Assembly (NCBI GenBank): GCA_963798915.1
Contig: CAWCVB010000002.1
Location: 96,001 to 160,000 of the forward strand
Origin: an uncultured Gemmatimonadales bacterium
GTDB taxonomy: Bacteria; Gemmatimonadota; Gemmatimonadetes; Gemmatimonadales; GWC2-71-9
DNA: 64,000 bases
Reading direction: 5' to 3'
Shown here in pieces: positions 45,638 through 51,639 of the stretch (positions within the stretch are counted from its first letter, which is position 1; every line of letters starts with the position of its first letter). Position numbers and translations under genes: made by a program. The notes under the pieces are model-generated. The model did not search any database. It saw nothing but the letters and a program-made list of their open reading frames with translations, and was not told the DNA's origin.

Positions 45638-46514
45638 GTCGTGCCAGCGCATCCTTGAGCCCATTCACTCGCTCCCGCAAGACGTCGTCCGCGCTCAGCC
45701 TGCCGTGCGCCGGATTCCGCGCCAGATCGGCAAACTGATCCTCCGCTGCTTGTACCGTAGCACGGTCGGAGGGGGCGCCCAGCTTCCATGGACCGAATCG
45801 GGTAAGCTGGCCGGTGCGCAGCGAATGGCGCACATAGTCGGCCAGGCGAATGTGCGGGGCGTTCCGGTGCTGGTCGTGCAGTGCTGGCACGTGCACCGGG
45901 GCGTAGTCCATCCGCAGTGATGCGGTCCAGTCCTGCCACTTGAATGCATTGATATGCTCGTAGCCCGCGATCGGCACCCAGGGAATCCTGAGCGCGTCGG
46001 CGACGATCGCGGCGTGCATGGCACCCGAGATCACGCATCGGCTGGCGGCCATCTGTGCGAGCGTCCGGTCCACCGAGGCCCACGGATCGAGAAAGGTCAG
46101 TCCCAGGCGGTTGCAGAATGACCGCCAGTCGAACATCGGCCGGCTGATGTGATGGGGCATGAAGGCCACGCGCCCGGTGCGCCGGCCGGGCGGCACCAGG
46201 TCGGTGATGAGGGCGGCGGAATCGGTGATGGCCAGCTCGGGCGGGAGGCCCAGCGCCGCCGCAGTGCCGGGTCCCCGGACGGCGTAGAAGCGCCAGCGCT
46301 CATCCACTAGCGGGAGTTCGCCGTATCCCACTCCGGCGCCGAGGACCACCTTGAACGGCTCCCGGGGGAGCCGGGCATGAAGCACCGTCCCGATGCCGAG
46401 GAGCAGGGGATCGGGGCCGTCCGGGCTGGCACCGGGCAGGACCCTGGGCCAGAGCCAGAGATTGAGATCGTCGCCAAAATTCCCGTACGAATCGTGGAAG
46501 TAATGTATTCGCAT
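45603..46514 (-). CDS. Polysaccharide pyruvyl transferase (ExoV-like)
   Basis: GNFGDDLN.WLW, AVRGP, FMPH, AMHAAIVADALRIPW and FKWQDW motifs. Confidence 0.85.
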   Translation of the reverse strand: MRIHYFHDSYGNFGDDLNLWLWPRVLPGASPDGPDPLLLGIGTVLHARLPREPFKVVLGAGVGYGELPLVDERWRFYAVRGPGTAAALGLPPELAITDSAALITDLVPPGRRTGRVAFMPHHISRPMFDWRSFCNRLGLTFLDPWASVDRTLAQMAASRCVISGAMHAAIVADALRIPWVPIAGYEHINAFKWQDWTASLRMDYAPVHVPALHDQHRNAPHIRLADYVRHSLRTGQLTRFGPWKLGAPSDRATVQAAEDQFADLARNPAHGRLSADDVLRERVNGLKDALARLKADWPSPAGQ

Positions 46515-46648
46515 GAATTTAGGTCAAGTGCCCCGGGGCGGAGGTGTCAAAAAATTGAATAGGGAAAAACCTAGGGGACAAATTTCCGGGTAGGTGTTAG
46601 CGTAGTCTCGCCCCCTGATGGCCGGCTCGTGCCGGCAGGAGTGTCGAG

Positions 46649-47002
46649 ATGGCGCCAGCGAACCGCCGGGACATTGATGTGCTCATCGAAAAGCATGAGA
46701 CGCGCCTCCGCGATGATTTCGACGACCGGGACATCGCGATCTATGTCCGGAGCCTGCTGGTTTCGATGACCGGCCAGTGGCACTTCAGCGCCATTACGCC
46801 GGAGACCCACCTGTACCGGGACCTGCGCTGGAACGTGGAGAGCGCCGAGCGGTTCCGTGCCACGCTGGAGGCGGTGTTCCGGGTGGAACTTGCCCCGTGG
46901 GAATTCCTCTGTGGCCGGACCGTCCGCGATCTCACTACACTTCTGGGCCGGGCGCTGAGCCGGGACCGGCGCCGCTTCGGCGGCGCTCCACCCGCCGCGT
47001 GA
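46649..47002 (+). CDS. Acyl-carrier-protein-like protein lacking the DSL serine
   Basis: ITPETHLYRDL...LEAVFRVEL...TVRDL follows the ACP pattern; AGGAG RBS. Confidence 0.55.
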   Translation: MAPANRRDIDVLIEKHETRLRDDFDDRDIAIYVRSLLVSMTGQWHFSAITPETHLYRDLRWNVESAERFRATLEAVFRVELAPWEFLCGRTVRDLTTLLGRALSRDRRRFGGAPPAA

Positions 47003-47081
47003 TCCGGGTTCCCATGCCCATATCTCACCCCCTGAGTTACTGTCGGCCACTCAGCCGTCCCCCTGTGGGAGAGGAGCGCGC

Positions 47082-47399
47082 ATGTTCACCGGCAAGGAAG
47101 ACCACGTCATCAGTCTCGAGCAGGCCCGTGTACTGGTCCAGCGCTGGCGCGAGCGGGGTTCCGCCCTGGCGGGTGACCCTGGCTCGGAATTTTTCGGTCG
47201 GGATGTCATTGAAAAGATACTCGGGCAGCCAGGCTGTGTGGGTCTTCGGATCCATCACGGGCGCAACGCCAAGGGGCAGCACACCATGCTGCTCGTGGGG
47301 GCTGACGCAGACGGCAACGAGCTGCTGGATGGCACCATCGCGGAGCAGGGCATGCCATGCCCACCGTTTTGCGGCGACGGAGGCATGCTCAGCCCGTGA
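47082..47399 (+). CDS. Small hypothetical protein with C-terminal PCPPFC motif
   Basis: GAGGAG RBS; 105 aa; no signal peptide; stop overlaps the next start (GTGA). Confidence 0.8.
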   Translation: MFTGKEDHVISLEQARVLVQRWRERGSALAGDPGSEFFGRDVIEKILGQPGCVGLRIHHGRNAKGQHTMLLVGADADGNELLDGTIAEQGMPCPPFCGDGGMLSP

Positions 47400-48106
47400 G
47401 TGCGCCCGCGGACCTGCTGTGGCATCTGGTCTCGCCTCTAGTGCGGGCCATGCGGCACCTGCCGCTCGCGGCGGGCGGCATTCTGTTTCCCATCGTACCG
47501 ATTCTGGCCGCCTGGCCGCGGCGGCACCAGCTGTCGGTGCCGCTGCGATGGGTTGTGGTATACCTGATCGTTACGCTGGCCGAAGAACTCTTCATGCTGT
47601 ACTGGAGCCGGCACGGCCGGCATAATCTCTGGATCATCAACCTGTACACGCCCATCGAGGCGTTCATGCTGGCCATGATGTATGCCGGCTGGCAGCTGCG
47701 GGAGCGGTGGCGTTTCATGATCTACCTGTCGCTGGCGGGTTTCGTCGCCTTCTGGGTGCTGATGATGTTCACCATCGAAGGGTTTGACACCTTCCCGAAG
47801 TTCAGCAAGCCGGTGGAGGCGCTGCTGGTCATCACGGCGTCGGCCTGGACGCTGGTCCAGCGATCCCGGCACGCCGCTTCACCGCTGACGTTCCACCCCT
47901 GGTTCTGGGTCTCGGTCGGGACGCTGCTCTACTTTGCCTACCTGCTGCTGCTCAATCCGGTCGGGATGATGCTGCTGAACCCGCGGCCCGACCTCTTCCG
48001 GCTGGCCTACGGCATCAACGGCGTCCTCACGACGATCATGTATCTCTTCTGGCTGCGCGCCATCTTCCTGGTTCGCACACCGGCGAAAGGCGACGCCCCC
48101 GCATGA
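47396..48106 (+). CDS. Polytopic (about 7 TM) membrane protein
   Basis: Multiple hydrophobic segments; NLWIINLYTPIE and FWVSVGTLLYF motifs; overlaps both neighbours. Confidence 0.8.
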   Translation: MSAPADLLWHLVSPLVRAMRHLPLAAGGILFPIVPILAAWPRRHQLSVPLRWVVVYLIVTLAEELFMLYWSRHGRHNLWIINLYTPIEAFMLAMMYAGWQLRERWRFMIYLSLAGFVAFWVLMMFTIEGFDTFPKFSKPVEALLVITASAWTLVQRSRHAASPLTFHPWFWVSVGTLLYFAYLLLLNPVGMMLLNPRPDLFRLAYGINGVLTTIMYLFWLRAIFLVRTPAKGDAPA

Positions 48107-48873
48107 ACGTTTCTCCCGGCGATCTGTTCTGGATCCTGGTGATCGTCACGCTCGCTGCGGCGATCCTGATTCTGGCGTTCGCGGCCAGTCTGGTCATCCA
48201 GCAGCGGCGTCTGGTCCGTGCCACCCGCTCCTTCGGCGGACGACTCCTCTCGGCCCAGGAGGACGAGCGGCGCTGGGTGGCGCGCGAGCTGCACGACGAT
48301 ATCATCCAGCGGGTTGCAATGCTGGGCCACGAAGTGGAAGAGATCGCCTCCCATAATGGTTCGAGCCCGGCCGAATTTGCCAAGCGCGCCAGCGGTCTCC
48401 GGGCCGAACTCGACGACCTGGCGGAAGAAGTACGGCGACTGGCGCACCGGATGCATCCGACCACGCTCGAGCACCTCGGGCTGAGCGCTGCGCTGGAGCA
48501 GCTTGCCACGGAATTCCGCGGCCAGGGACTTGATGTGCGGGTACGCGGGGCGCTGCCCGATGGCGAGCTGTCGCCCGAGGCCGCGACCTGCCTGTTTCGG
48601 GTGGCCCAGGAAGGCTTGCGCAATGTGCTGAAGCATGCGCAGACCCGAACAGCGATGGTGCGGCTGGGCACGGAGGCCGACGGCGCGTTGCTCGAGGTGG
48701 CCGATGGCGGCGCAGGCTTTGACCGCAGTTCCGCGGCCGCCCAGGCCGGCCTCGGCCTCTCCAGTCTCTCGGAGCGCGTGCGGCTCCTCCATGGCAGGCT
48801 TACCGTGCGGACCCGTCAGGGGCAGGGCACCAGCGTAACGGCGTGGGTACCGCCGCTCGTCCGGCGGGCATGA
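48103..48873 (+). CDS. Histidine kinase (HisKA_3) with a single N-terminal TM
   Basis: AQEDERRWVARELHDDIIQ, RVAQEGLRNVLKHA, DGGAGF and GLGL motifs. Confidence 0.92.
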   Translation: MNVSPGDLFWILVIVTLAAAILILAFAASLVIQQRRLVRATRSFGGRLLSAQEDERRWVARELHDDIIQRVAMLGHEVEEIASHNGSSPAEFAKRASGLRAELDDLAEEVRRLAHRMHPTTLEHLGLSAALEQLATEFRGQGLDVRVRGALPDGELSPEAATCLFRVAQEGLRNVLKHAQTRTAMVRLGTEADGALLEVADGGAGFDRSSAAAQAGLGLSSLSERVRLLHGRLTVRTRQGQGTSVTAWVPPLVRRA

Positions 48874-49511
48874 CGCGTCCGCGCATCCTGATCGCCGATG
48901 ATCATGCGCTGGTGGCTGCCGGTCTTCGCGCCATGCTGGAGCCGGCGCATGAGGTGGTGGAGGTCGTCTCCAATGGGCTGGATGTGATCGAAGCCGTCGA
49001 GCGGCATCAGCCCGACCTGGTGCTGCTGGACATTTCGCTCCCGGGCCGGAGCGGCATGGAGGTGGCTCGCGACCTCGCCGCGCATCCATCCGGCGTGCCG
49101 TTCGTCATGCTGACCATGCATGCGGATCCCATCTACGCCGATGAAGCCATTGCCTCGGGCGCCATCGGATTCGTGCTCAAGATGGCCGGGCCGGATGAAC
49201 TCCGATTCGCGATCGCGCAGGCGCTGCAGGGCCAGGTATACATCACGCCGCGACTGCCCGCGCGCAGCAGGCCGCTCACGGCGCCGAAGGGCCTGGAGGC
49301 GGAGAGCGCGCTGGCGGCACTCACCCGGCGCCAGCAGCAGATCCTCAAGCTGATCGCCAAGGGATGGAGCCTCAAGGACATCGCCGATGAGCTGGGGATC
49401 AACATCCGCAGTGTGGAGTTCCATCGGAACCGTATCCGCAAGACACTGGGGCTGACCAGCACGGCGGCCCTGGTCCGCTTTGCGCTGGTTCATGGGCTGG
49501 TGAAGCATTGA
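48870..49511 (+). CDS. NarL/LuxR-type response regulator
   Basis: ILIADDH, LLDISLP and LTMH motifs; HTH LTRRQQQILKLIAKG..KDIADELGI..RSVEFHR. Confidence 0.94.
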   Translation: MTRPRILIADDHALVAAGLRAMLEPAHEVVEVVSNGLDVIEAVERHQPDLVLLDISLPGRSGMEVARDLAAHPSGVPFVMLTMHADPIYADEAIASGAIGFVLKMAGPDELRFAIAQALQGQVYITPRLPARSRPLTAPKGLEAESALAALTRRQQQILKLIAKGWSLKDIADELGINIRSVEFHRNRIRKTLGLTSTAALVRFALVHGLVKH

Positions 49512-49651
49512 CAGGGCGAACTGCTTTGCGCACCTGATCGGTGCGGATGTCGGTCCCACACGCGCCTTTACGATCTACCTCGTGCAATGACCGACGCCGC
49601 CAGCGCGCCGATGCTGGGGCACGGGATGGCCTGAAGTCGTGAGGTGATACC

Positions 49652-50155
49652 ATGTCCAGATTCAGCATGCTGATCGTCAGCACGGTGCTTCTGATTCCGG
49701 GCGCTGCACTGGCCCAGGGCCGGCCACTGGCCCCGACGGGATTGTGGGGAAGTCTCGCGGTCGGCCCCTCCACGCCGTACGATTATGGAGCGACCCTGTC
49801 GCTGGCCTATCGCAGCGGCCACTACATCTTTCGGGGCAGGTTCTCCGCCGTTGGAGAACTCTTCGGGAACCAGAACGGCGAATACGGCCTGCTGGTCGGC
49901 CGCGTCGTGACGCCGATGCGCGGTTCGGTGCAGTTCAGTGTGGGGGCGGGACTGGGCCTGGTGACCGGGTGGCAGGGCGGAGGCGTGTTTGCCAGTGGCG
50001 AGCCGACCGACGACGTGATGGGCGTACTGCTGAACGGGGAAACGCGGATCCGGCTCACCAGCTTTCTCGGGCTTTCGGCCACGCTGTTTGGCGACCTCAA
50101 TGGGCGGGAGTCCTTCGGCGGTCTTGCCGCCGGGATCTACCTTGGGCAATTCTAG
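49652..50155 (+). CDS. Secreted, possibly outer-membrane beta-barrel-like hypothetical protein
   Basis: GAGGT RBS; signal peptide ending ALA; Gly/aromatic alternating strands; terminal Phe. Confidence 0.6.
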   Translation: MSRFSMLIVSTVLLIPGAALAQGRPLAPTGLWGSLAVGPSTPYDYGATLSLAYRSGHYIFRGRFSAVGELFGNQNGEYGLLVGRVVTPMRGSVQFSVGAGLGLVTGWQGGGVFASGEPTDDVMGVLLNGETRIRLTSFLGLSATLFGDLNGRESFGGLAAGIYLGQF

Positions 50156-50171
50156 CAGGGACTGGTGACGC

Positions 50172-51396
50172 ATTGACCTGACGTCGGGGGCGCCGTTCTG
50201 GCCGGTGCGCGACGGCCTCATGGCCACTTACCCGGCATTGACGTCGGACATCGAGTGCGACGTGCTGGTGGTGGGTGGCGGGGTCACCGGTGCGCTCTCG
50301 GCCTGGCAGCTGGTGCAGGCGGGACTCGACACGGTGCTCGTGGACGCCCGCGAAATCGGCTGGGGCAGCACCAGCGCCTCCACCGCGCTCCTGATGTACG
50401 ACCTGGACGTCCAGCTCGTGGACCTGACCCATCAGGTCGGCCGGGAGCGCGCCGAGGCGGTGTACCGTGCGGCGCGCGAGGCGGTGCACTCGCTGTGCGC
50501 CATGAGCGGTGCGCTGAGCGCTGAGCGTGTACCGTCCAGCGTCCGACGCGTCCCGACTCTCTACCTTGCCAGCCGCGCGAGCGACGCCGCAAGGCTGAGG
50601 CGCGAGCAGGCGGCGCGCGAGCAGGCGGGACTCGAGGTGGAATACTGGGACCGCGAGGAGATCGCGCGGCATTTTCCGTTCAGCCGAGCTGCCGCGCTGT
50701 GGCATGAGGACGCGGCGCAGGTGGATCCGCTGGCGTTCACGCATGCGTTGCTGGCCGATGGGGTGAGGCACGGGTTGAGAGTCTTTGATCGGACGGCGGT
50801 CAACGGTCGACGGTCGACGGTGGCGACGGACGACCGACGACCGACGACTGTCGACCTCAAGCGGAGCGTACATACGCGCCGATCGTCTCGTCTACGCCAC
50901 CGGCTACGAAACCGAGCAGCGGCTGCGGCAGCCGTCGGTGCATCTGCACGACACGTATGCCTTTGCCAGTGAACCGGTGGAAGACCTCGCCGACTGGCAC
51001 CGGCGGGCCCTCATATGGGAAACTGCCAGGCCCTATCTCTATCTCCGCACCACCCAGGACAACCGGGTGATGGTCGGCGGCGGCGATGACCGCCACACCA
51101 CACCCGAGCGCCGGGACCGGGCGCTGCCGGAGAAGCTGGAGCAGCTGCTGCGCCGGGCTCGGCGCATGTTTCCCGGCCTGGACCTCACGCCAGCCTTTGC
51201 CTGGGCCGGGACCTTTGCCGAAACCGACGACGGCATGCCGTATATCGGATGCCATCCCCGATATCCCGGCGCCATCTTCGCGGCCTGCTACGGCGGGAAC
51301 GGGACCGTGTTCGCGATGATGGCCTCGGAGATTGTGCGCGATTGGTGCTTGGGACGGAAGAACGAGATGGCGGAGTGGTTCGGGTTCGGGAGATAG
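50172..51396 (+). pseudogene. FAD-dependent oxidoreductase (DAO/glycine oxidase-like), frameshifted at a heptamer tract
   Basis: DVLVVGGGVTG and GSTSASTALL in the first frame; VYATGYE, WAGTFAETDDGMPYIG and YGGNG in the +1 frame. Confidence 0.8.
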
Positions 51397-51478: not shown

Positions 51479-51584
51479 CACGAAAACACGAAAACACGAA
51501 AGCACGGAAGAGAAGCACGAAAGCACGAAAGCACGAAAGCACGGAAGCACGGAAGCACGAAAACACGGAAGCACGGAAGCACGA
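51479..51584. repeat. Octamer tandem repeat (CACGAAAG/CACGGAAG)n
   Basis: About a dozen degenerate copies. Confidence 0.9.
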
Positions 51585-51639
51585 AGTGGTCGATGATGGA
51601 GCGTCGACCGTTGACTATCGACGATATTCGGGAGGCGTC

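What the first reader, a model, noticed from the sequence alone, without database searches (positions are those of the whole stretch)
47082..49511. Four-gene signalling module: PCPPFC small protein + polytopic membrane protein + sensor-less kinase + NarL regulator
Seen: four genes with overlapping stop/start codons at every junction (GTGA 47396, ATGA 48103, ATGA 48870), so they are probably translationally coupled. The kinase has one TM helix and no sensor domain. The 105-aa protein has no signal peptide, carries a GCVGLRI motif and ends in PCPPFC plus a short tail. Established: HisKA_3 kinases pair with NarL-type regulators, and sensor-less kinases often use an accessory membrane subunit. Inference: the membrane protein is a split receptor or processing/export factor, and the small protein is a signal precursor or redox/metal switch whose CPPxC could be released as a cyclic (disulfide or thiolactone) peptide. 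That would be an Agr-like communication system in a diderm bacterium. I recall similar unannotated CPPxC proteins beside two-component genes in Bacteroidota but could not verify this.
Basis: partly seen in the sequence, partly recalled or inferred. Interest (0 to 1): 0.82.

Follow-up and report, generated by a model that had tools for sequence, protein, structure and literature searches.

The report
Three-part membrane sensor feeding a kinase
A small cysteine-motif protein and a seven-helix membrane protein, both from uncharacterised families, sit almost invariably side by side in front of a sensor-less histidine kinase in several bacterial phyla, and most likely form its missing sensor rather than a peptide-pheromone system.

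Summary
The four genes, their 4-base overlaps, the single-helix kinase and the PCPPFC ending are all as described.

The small protein is not a peptide precursor. It is a folded ~100-residue domain (AlphaFold2 pLDDT 90) with no match in Pfam, NCBIfam or solved structures. The family is large: 2256 cluster representatives. Tandem two-domain forms are common, and about a third carry an export signal.

The membrane protein models as a seven-helix bundle with a GPCR/rhodopsin-like arrangement and also belongs to no named family.

In 82 distinct loci from Gemmatimonadota, Bacteroidota and Ignavibacteriales, the small gene is directly followed by the 7TM gene in 79. A kinase follows in at least 66. 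Nearly all of these kinases have one N-terminal membrane helix and no sensor domain. Their catalytic class varies between HisKA_3 and PAS+HisKA.

Best reading: the small protein and the 7TM protein form a portable input module for single-pass kinases. The Agr-like reading is not supported. A thiol or metal switch remains possible but is not universal. Physical binding was not tested because the complex predictor was unavailable.

The parts
47067..47076 (+). Shine-Dalgarno-like GGGAGAGGAG ahead of the small gene
   Evidence: Sequence. The GGGAG core and the ATG are invariant in the alignment with five relatives.
47082..47399 (+). Gene for the 105-aa small protein: a leaderless alpha/beta domain of an unnamed family that ends in PCPPFC plus 8 residues
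   Evidence: ORF. No Pfam or NCBIfam hit. 2256 family representatives. AF2 pLDDT 90.1. No fold match: Foldseek best E 0.088, VIA best Z 2.8.
47355..47372 (+). Codons for P92-C93-P94-P95-F96-C97 (the PCPPFC motif)
   Evidence: Invariant in 14 close homologues. Across 233 domain instances C93 is present in 186, P94 in 194 and C97 in 183, and the two cysteines are kept or lost together.
47396..48106 (+). Gene for the 236-aa seven-helix membrane protein (GTG start, unnamed family)
   Evidence: ORF. The start fits homologue N-termini. No Pfam or NCBIfam hit. AF2 pLDDT 92.7. GPCR/rhodopsin-like 7-helix arrangement, VIA Z 10-14.
48103..48873 (+). Gene for the 256-aa histidine kinase: short N-terminal stub, one membrane helix, QQRR, then HisKA_3 and HATPase_c
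   Evidence: Pfam HisKA_3 E 1e-08 and HATPase_c E 7.4e-11. N-terminal helix at residues ~8-31.
48124..48195 (+). Codons for the kinase's single membrane helix (about residues 8-31), the proposed docking helix for the 7TM protein
   Evidence: Hydropathy 2.98 over 19 residues. The same type of helix is found in 66 of 67 kinases that follow a 7TM gene. Docking is inferred, not tested.
48870..49511 (+). Gene for the 213-aa NarL-type response regulator (REC + GerE)
   Evidence: Pfam Response_reg E 1.8e-26 and GerE E 3.7e-14.

Best explanation
The operon encodes a two-component system whose sensing part is split over three polypeptides. The kinase has no sensor of its own. It has a very short outside stub, one membrane helix and a basic QQRR stop-transfer, and about 30 residues later comes the phospho-accepting helix (HisKA_3). 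I propose that the stand-alone seven-helix membrane protein is the receptor/transducer. It would pack against the kinase's single helix in the membrane and pass conformational changes straight into the kinase's dimerisation helix. The 105-aa PCPPxC protein would be a soluble co-sensor that docks on this receptor, or on the receptor-kinase pair, and sets its state. The phosphorylated NarL-type regulator then changes transcription. Here the small protein has no export signal, so in this organism it should act from the cytoplasmic side, perhaps reporting a thiol-reactive, redox or metal cue through the C93/C97 pair, with C52 possibly involved. Shown: the gene anatomy, the family sizes, the predicted folds, and the very tight gene linkage across phyla and across kinase classes. 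Inferred: all physical contacts, the direction of signal flow, the cue and the target genes.
For: 1. Linkage. In 82 distinct loci from Gemmatimonadota, Bacteroidota and Ignavibacteriales, the small gene is directly followed by the 7TM gene in 79. Two of the exceptions are cut by a contig end.
2. Co-occurrence. In one sample of 301 genomes of the window's phylum, the small protein is found in 39 and the 7TM protein in 41. These are the same 39 plus two more.
3. A kinase follows the 7TM gene in 55 of the 82 short loci, and in 11 of the 16 loci that I re-fetched with wider flanks.
4. 66 of 67 such kinases have one N-terminal membrane helix, only a short stub before it and no extracytoplasmic domain.
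5. The catalytic class of the kinase changes while the pair in front of it stays. It is HisKA_3 here and in L009, L010 and L101. It is PAS+HisKA, sometimes hybrid with a REC domain, in L091, L092, L094, L096 and L102. This is the pattern expected of a portable input module.
6. No flanking genes are conserved beyond the module, except by plain synteny among the five closest relatives.
7. The 7TM protein models with high confidence (pLDDT 92.7) as a seven-helix bundle. Its best structural neighbours are GPCR-like designs, GPCRs and microbial rhodopsins, with VIA Z 10.2-14.2.
8. The small protein models as a compact domain (pLDDT 90.1). Polar residues Q49, R56 and Y58 and the cysteine pair are near-invariant.
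9. All three junctions overlap by 4 bases, which fits production of the parts together.
Against: No contact between any two of the proteins was tested, because the complex predictor was unavailable. The small domain occurs both with Sec or lipoprotein signals and without. Meanwhile the 7TM partner keeps the same lysine/arginine bias in 71 of 78 members, which suggests N-terminus out and C-terminus in for both kinds. One fixed docking face therefore cannot hold for the whole family. In the window's own clade the charge bias is nearly balanced (6 versus 7), so its topology is uncertain. Two genomes (G243, G298) keep the 7TM gene and the kinase without any small gene. At least five loci keep the small gene and the 7TM gene with no kinase within 4 kb or more. 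So neither link is obligatory. No fused 7TM-kinase protein was found, although that search is weak. The cysteine pair is missing from some lineages that keep the module, so a thiol or metal switch cannot be the general mechanism. No expression data were found.
Confidence: 0.55

Rival explanations
1. Agr-like communication. The small protein is a precursor. The membrane protein cuts and exports a cyclic CPPxC peptide, which the kinase then senses from outside.
For: The small gene has no leader here and sits directly before a polytopic membrane gene, a kinase and a regulator, with overlapping codons. The cysteine pair near the C-terminus is highly conserved.
Against: The whole ~100-residue chain is conserved and models as one compact domain. 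Tandem two-domain proteins are common. 51 of the 149 listed relatives have an ordinary hydrophobic leader or lipobox. Some lineages lack the cysteines yet keep the module. The membrane protein has no peptidase or transporter family match. The kinase has almost nothing outside the membrane with which to bind a peptide. The regulator is GerE-type, not LytTR-type.
Confidence: 0.03
2. The small protein and the 7TM protein are not the sensor. They are a brake or a monitored effector of the kinase, as LiaF is for LiaS or BceAB is for BceS. The kinase would read membrane stress or the work-load of the 7TM protein, and the operon would mainly regulate itself.
For: The layout is the same as in known systems with accessory membrane proteins encoded in the kinase operon. 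I saw only search listings and the starts of abstracts for PMC3543457 and 10.1101/2020.02.28.969956. The kinase has a single membrane helix and no sensor domain. No other conserved target genes lie nearby. Two genomes keep the 7TM gene and the kinase without the small gene.
Against: The 7TM protein has no ATPase partner and no LiaF-like or transporter family match. The pair is attached to kinases of two catalytic classes, which fits an input module better than a specific effector. Nothing here separates activation from inhibition, so this rival overlaps with the best explanation in everything except sign.
Confidence: 0.2
3. The 7TM protein is a membrane enzyme, for example a lipid hydrolase or a thiol-modifying enzyme. 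The small protein is its substrate or cofactor carrier, and the kinase is a co-located regulator.
For: One of the three nearest language-model clusters carries the automatic name 'Lysoplasmalogenase', but with no common Pfam family. A buried acidic residue in helix 3 (E88) is kept in 45 of 78 members, and N77, F170/W171 and Y179 are also conserved.
Against: No enzyme family was matched by any of 78 members at E<=0.1, apart from scattered single hits. The structural neighbours are receptors and rhodopsins, not hydrolases. The automatic cluster name rests on no family assignment.
Confidence: 0.1
4. The adjacency is only inherited gene order, and the small and 7TM proteins have no functional tie to the kinase.
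For: Most loci come from two phyla, and related genomes share gene order by descent.
Against: The order holds across three phyla, at 12-72% identity of the 7TM proteins to the window's (one member at 9%), and with different kinase classes, while all other neighbours differ. The phyletic patterns of the two families coincide in 39 of 41 genomes.
Confidence: 0.02

Closest known systems
LiaFSR / VraTSR-type systems (HisKA_3 kinase, NarL-type regulator, accessory membrane protein in the operon). Known to me from memory; for PMC3543457 I saw only the search listing and the start of the abstract.
   Same: A HisKA_3 kinase with hardly any extracytoplasmic part, a NarL-type regulator, and an accessory membrane protein encoded just upstream in the same operon.
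   Different: The accessory protein here is a seven-helix bundle of an unnamed family, with no LiaF-type match. The kinase has one membrane helix rather than two. A third soluble component is present.
UhpABC (membrane receptor UhpC + kinase UhpB + NarL-type UhpA). Recalled.
   Same: A separate polytopic membrane protein acts as receptor for a HisKA_3-type kinase with a NarL-type regulator. UhpB and UhpA models are among the best NCBIfam matches of the kinase and the regulator.
   Different: Those matches are far below the curated cut-offs (108.9 versus 408 bits; 86.6 versus 258 bits). UhpC is a 12-helix MFS protein and UhpB has its own multi-helix domain. Here the receptor has 7 helices and the kinase has 1.
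KbaA-KinB of Bacillus subtilis (Pfam PF14089). For PMC6011975 I saw only the search listing and the start of the abstract.
   Same: A small polytopic membrane protein that acts on a histidine kinase pathway. Three of the 78 7TM members give weak KbaA hits.
   Different: The hits score 17.6-22.8 bits against a cut-off of 27. They cover half of the profile, in a shifted register, and occur only in three closely related members. KbaA is not encoded with a small CPPxC protein (recalled).
SpdC-WalK of Staphylococcus aureus. For PMC5854430 I saw only the search listing and the start of the abstract.
   Same: A multi-helix membrane protein that controls a histidine kinase's activity.
   Different: SpdC is an Abi/CAAX-type protein. 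No such family was matched here.
7TMR-DISM receptors (Pfam PF07695): bacterial seven-helix modules fused to kinases and cyclases
   Same: Seven membrane helices used as a signalling input for histidine kinases, common in Bacteroidota.
   Different: In 7TMR-DISM the seven-helix module is fused to the output domain, and, as I recall, it carries large extracellular domains. Here it is a separate 205-240-aa protein. Profile-profile comparison gives probability 1%, and none of the 78 members hits PF07695.
Agr quorum sensing (AgrD/AgrB/AgrC/AgrA). Recalled.
   Same: The gene order: small protein, membrane protein, kinase, regulator.
   Different: See the membership test. The precursor, processing enzyme, kinase class and regulator class all differ.

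Membership tests
HisKA_3 / NarL-type two-component system | Kinase with HisKA_3 dimerisation/phospho-acceptor domain and HATPase_c | tested here: met
   PF07730 36 bits (cut-off 24) and PF02518 42.9 bits (cut-off 26.4).
HisKA_3 / NarL-type two-component system | Regulator with receiver domain and GerE/LuxR-type helix-turn-helix | tested here: met
   PF00072 92.9 bits and PF00196 52.5 bits.
Agr-type peptide quorum sensing | Short precursor peptide (about 40-50 aa, recalled) whose mature part is a small excised ring | tested here: not met
   The protein is a 105-aa chain conserved end to end. It models as one domain (pLDDT 90.1). Tandem two-domain forms and forms with Sec or lipoprotein leaders exist.
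Agr-type peptide quorum sensing | AgrB-type membrane endopeptidase | tested here: not met
   No Pfam family at E<=1 for the window's membrane protein. No AgrB hit among 78 members at E<=0.1.
Agr-type peptide quorum sensing | Kinase with its own multi-helix sensor, and a LytTR-type regulator (recalled definition) | tested here: not met
   The kinase has one helix and HisKA_3. The regulator is GerE-type.
7TMR-DISM (PF07695) | Sequence-profile membership of the seven-helix module | tested here: not met
   None of 78 members hits PF07695 at E<=0.1. hhalign of A4 against 9 genuine 7TMR-DISM modules gives probability 1%.
KbaA (PF14089) | Score above the curated cut-off of 27 bits | tested here: not met
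   Best scores are 22.8, 20.0 and 17.6 bits in 3 members. The other 70 members scanned gave no KbaA hit, and the window's own protein gave none either.
GPCR / microbial rhodopsin fold | Seven-helix bundle with the same helix arrangement | tested here: inconclusive
   VIA Z 10.2-14.2 over 178-212 aligned residues, and the list is filled with GPCRs, GPCR-like designs and rhodopsins. The tool warns that Z below about 13 is common for helical bundles. Foldseek best E is 0.063. Identity is 3-12% and there is no sequence evidence of kinship.
Intramembrane-sensing kinases with accessory proteins (Lia/Bce kind) | Kinase without an extracytoplasmic sensor domain, plus an accessory membrane protein in the operon | tested here: met
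   One N-terminal helix with a short stub in 66 of 67 kinases. The 7TM gene lies directly upstream.
Intramembrane-sensing kinases with accessory proteins (Lia/Bce kind) | Accessory protein homologous to LiaF or to a BceAB-type ABC transporter | tested here: not met
   No such Pfam or NCBIfam match.
Thiol/metal-binding small proteins (CxxxC type) | Conserved cysteine pair placed to bind a metal or form a redox-active disulfide | not testable with these tools
   C93 and C97 are kept or lost together (186 and 183 of 233 instances). C52 is present in 163. The CopG match at Z 2.8 is within noise.

The most novel reading that the evidence does not exclude
FCB-group bacteria possess a so far undescribed class of receptor. 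A free-standing GPCR-like seven-helix protein uses a dedicated small protein of a new fold as its ligand or co-receptor, gated by the CPPxC cysteine pair, and signals by lateral contact with a single-pass histidine kinase. In lineages where the small protein carries an export signal, it could even be a self-made protein signal sensed from outside.
Probability: 0.25. Interest if true: 0.8.

Novelty: new variant of a known kind. Interest (0 to 1): 0.62.

Why it matters
Sensor-less histidine kinases are common, and for most of them the source of the signal is unknown. Here a large, unnamed pair of protein families turns out to be their near-constant companion. The small protein has 2256 cluster representatives. 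The pair is present in about one genome in eight of the Gemmatimonadota sampled and one in nine of the Bacteroidota sampled. If the pair is the sensor, three things follow. It defines a new three-component input module. It gives a function to two families of 'hypothetical proteins'. It also adds a free-standing seven-helix receptor to bacterial signalling. The small domain has no detectable structural relative, so a solved structure would probably add a new fold. The unexplained mix of exported and leaderless forms makes the system a good test case for how a signalling module changes sides of the membrane.

Tried and rejected
Binding is therefore untested.
- Fused 7TM-kinase forms: none among 7996 longer candidates. 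The tool itself calls this weak evidence.
- Fold of the small protein: Foldseek best E 0.088, VIA best Z 2.8 against 48,161 chains, and a sequence profile against PDB chains gave 0 hits at E<=1. The CopG row (Z 2.8) is not above noise.
- The 7TM profile against PDB chains gave one hit at E 0.27, which I ignored.
- KbaA lead: sub-threshold in 3 related members only. I could not obtain KbaA sequences for a profile comparison, because one search gave no locus.
- 7TMR-DISM: hhalign probability 1%.
- 'Lysoplasmalogenase' automatic cluster name: no family support.
- The language-model atlas for the small protein returned only 'hypothetical protein' clusters. Source names of 10 family members are all 'hypothetical protein' or blank.
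- P0067 (4303 aa, 10 stretches) is a MucBP/Ig repeat protein. I treat its match as spurious.
- Topology inversion as an explanation for exported versus leaderless small proteins: rejected, because the lysine/arginine bias of the 7TM partner has the same sign in both groups.
- Tree of 90 single-domain members: the export-signal state needs 11 changes against 28.8 for shuffled labels. Only 2 of 87 inner branches are well supported, so the number of switches is unresolved.
- Promoter scan of 46400-49900: no sigma-70-like site, but this phylum's promoters may differ.
- RNA evidence: no RNA holder listed. No reads were laid.
- Literature: searches for CPPxC-type motif words, for a 7TM accessory protein of kinases, and for HisKA_3 with a small protein in Bacteroidetes found nothing on these families. 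This covers only the held library. Supplements were not consulted.
- Earlier notes of this scan: nothing.
Full report
**The observation**

The window holds four co-directional ORFs:
- 47082-47399: 105 aa
- 47396-48106: 236 aa, counted from the GTG
- 48103-48873: 256 aa
- 48870-49511: 213 aa, counted from the ATG

The sequence shows GTGA at 47396, ATGA at 48103 and ATGA at 48870. Each start codon therefore overlaps the preceding stop by four bases.

The starts are supported by relatives. A GGGAG box and the ATG of the first gene are invariant in five relatives. The N-termini of 20 homologues of the membrane protein fit the GTG start.

Pfam finds HisKA_3 and HATPase_c in the third protein and REC plus GerE in the fourth. 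It finds nothing in the first two. NCBIfam agrees. Its best kinase and regulator matches (MctS/MctR, UhpB/UhpA, NarX/NarL) are all far below their cut-offs.

The kinase starts with about seven residues, then one hydrophobic helix, then QQRR. The conserved histidine box follows about 30 residues later.

**The small protein**

A word-based search found only 14 relatives, all from Gemmatimonadales-type records. PCPPxC is invariant among them.

A profile search of 1.84 billion representatives found 2256 proteins at E<=0.001 and 960 at E<=1e-10. The 149 that I inspected fall into three forms:
- About 100-aa leaderless proteins like the window's.
- 125-180-aa proteins with an N-terminal hydrophobic leader or a lipoprotein box. 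51 of the 149 have such a stretch. One of these, P0067, is a spurious repeat protein.
- 210-290-aa proteins with two copies of the domain.

None of 13 diverse members hits Pfam above noise or NCBIfam. Source names are 'hypothetical protein' or blank.

With an 83-sequence alignment, AlphaFold2 gives a confident compact alpha/beta model (pLDDT 90.1, pTM 0.77). That model has no structural neighbour. Foldseek's best E is 0.088, and VIA's best Z is 2.8 over 48,161 chains. A sequence profile finds no PDB chain.

Across 233 domain instances the near-invariant positions are G54, R56, Y58, Q49, L47, G73, P94 and the pair C93/C97, which are present or absent together. C52 is present in 163 and replaced by Ala or Val in 60.

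A protein conserved along its whole length, folded and often duplicated in tandem does not behave like a leader-plus-core peptide precursor.

**The membrane protein**

Close relatives are again 'hypothetical' Gemmatimonadales proteins. I collected 78 members from the loci below.

AlphaFold2 gives pLDDT 92.7 and pTM 0.86. The model has seven long membrane helices after a short N-terminal helix.

In the all-against-all structural search the listed neighbours are GPCR-like designs, GPCRs and microbial rhodopsins, apart from one entry titled only 'membrane protein'. Z is 10.2-14.2 over 178-212 aligned residues. Foldseek gives nothing below E 0.06.

The tool warns that such Z values are common for helical bundles. 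I therefore claim a GPCR/rhodopsin-like seven-helix arrangement, not kinship.

Other tests for a known family gave nothing:
- No member hits a known bacterial seven-helix family.
- Three related members give sub-threshold KbaA hits.
- A profile-profile comparison with nine genuine 7TMR-DISM modules gives probability 1%.

Lysine and arginine are enriched in loops 1-2, 3-4, 5-6 and the C-terminus in 71 of 78 members. This suggests N-terminus out and C-terminus in. The window's own clade is nearly balanced, 6 versus 7.

Conserved positions include P35, N77, W79, a buried E88 in helix 3, W99, W120, F133, F170/W171, G175 and Y179.

**Gene context**

I examined 82 distinct loci. They came from a scan of species-representative genomes and from whole-genome searches in the window's phylum and in the phylum of a Cyclobacteriaceae carrier.

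| Feature | Count |
|---|---|
| Small gene directly followed by the 7TM gene | 79 of 82 |
| Locus cut by a contig end just after the small gene | 2 of 82 |
| Other order: 7TM, kinase, small (L081) | 1 of 82 |
| Kinase follows, seen in the short loci | 55 of 82 |
| Kinase follows, among 16 loci re-fetched wider | 11 of 16 |
| No kinase within 4 kb or more | 5 loci |
| Regulator only | 1 locus |
| Undetermined | 10 loci |

Some loci carry three tandem 7TM paralogues (L101, L102), two small genes (L044, L068) or two modules in a row (L032).

In one sample of 301 genomes of the window's phylum, the small protein is found in 39 and the 7TM protein in 41. These are the same 39 plus G243 and G298, which have the 7TM gene and the kinase but no small gene. 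In 401 genomes of the other phylum, 45 carry the small protein. The other neighbours differ from locus to locus, apart from plain synteny among the five closest relatives.

**The kinases**

Of 67 kinases that follow a 7TM gene, 66 begin with a short stub and a single hydrophobic helix. A basic motif follows the helix in 56 of the 62 distinct kinases. In the one exception the ORF caller probably cut the helix off.

Pfam shows that the catalytic core varies:
- HisKA_3 in the window and in L009, L010 and L101.
- PAS plus classical HisKA, sometimes with a C-terminal receiver domain, in L091, L092, L094, L096 and L102.

By a simple histidine-box pattern, 54 of 62 distinct kinases are HisKA_3-like. 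The motif used is recalled, not curated.

The constant part is therefore the pair in front and the kinase's single helix. The catalytic core is not constant.

**Interpretation**

The simplest account is that the 7TM protein is the missing membrane sensor or transducer of a single-pass kinase. The small protein would be a third, soluble part of that sensor. The 4-base overlaps fit joint production.

The short distance from the kinase's helix to its histidine box, with no HAMP or PAS domain in the window's version, fits direct helix-to-helix transmission.

I did not show any contact, the sign of control, the cue or the regulon. The complex predictor was not available.

A brake-type role, as in LiaF, fits the same data and differs only in sign.

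The Agr-like reading fails on the nature of the small protein, on the membrane protein and on the kinase and regulator classes.

A thiol or metal switch through C93/C97 is attractive for the leaderless, presumably cytoplasmic protein of this window. It cannot be general, because lipoprotein-type tandem forms without the pair still sit before a 7TM gene and a kinase.

**Open problem**

The same domain is exported in some lineages and leaderless in others, yet the charge bias of the 7TM partner does not flip. Three explanations remain:
- The small domain works on different faces of the membrane in different lineages.
- Leaderless forms leave the cytoplasm by an unknown route.
- The small protein contacts something other than the 7TM protein.

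The family tree clusters the two states (11 changes versus 28.8 for shuffled labels). It is too poorly resolved to count switches.

**Comparison and novelty**

As a kind of system this belongs with two-component systems that use accessory membrane proteins: Lia, Bce, Uhp, KbaA-KinB and SpdC-WalK. I know these from memory and from search listings and the starts of abstracts only.

Both accessory proteins fail every membership test I could run, and the small one has no detectable structural relative. My searches of the held literature found no description of either family.

I therefore rate it a new variant of a known kind. It is of solid interest to people who study bacterial signalling, but it is not the diderm Agr system that was proposed.

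Noticed in passing
window 50205-51396 (+): A DAO-family FAD oxidoreductase is split over two overlapping frames. 50205-50972 covers profile positions 1-181 and 50785-51396 covers 171-353. In relative L007 it is one 402-aa ORF. This is a frameshift, either real or an assembly error.
   Followed up: partly
window 51479-51585: A tandem array of an 8-base unit (CACGAAAG, 13.8 copies, 86% matches) lies directly upstream of the ORF that starts at 51586.
   Followed up: no
window 46649-47002 (+): A 117-aa ORF with no Pfam match lies 80 bases upstream of the module on the same strand. It is conserved at 64-76% identity in the five closest relatives but not in more distant carriers of the module, so it is probably plain synteny.
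   Followed up: partly
L101 4757-7132 and L102 4388-6862: Three tandem paralogues of the 7TM gene lie between one small gene and the kinase.
   Followed up: no
L139 and L140 (genomes G243, G298): The 7TM gene and the single-helix HisKA_3 kinase are present with no small PCPPxC gene upstream, even at E<=10.
   Followed up: partly
L081 960-1325 (-): An odd arrangement. A small PCPPxC gene, ending ...CPPYCN at the very C-terminus, lies downstream of a 7TM-kinase pair and is followed by an unrelated 253-aa gene.
   Followed up: partly
L013 6669-10046 (+): In this Gemmatimonadales locus the kinase is followed by a 1125-aa ORF instead of a NarL-type regulator. I did not scan it against any family.
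   Followed up: no
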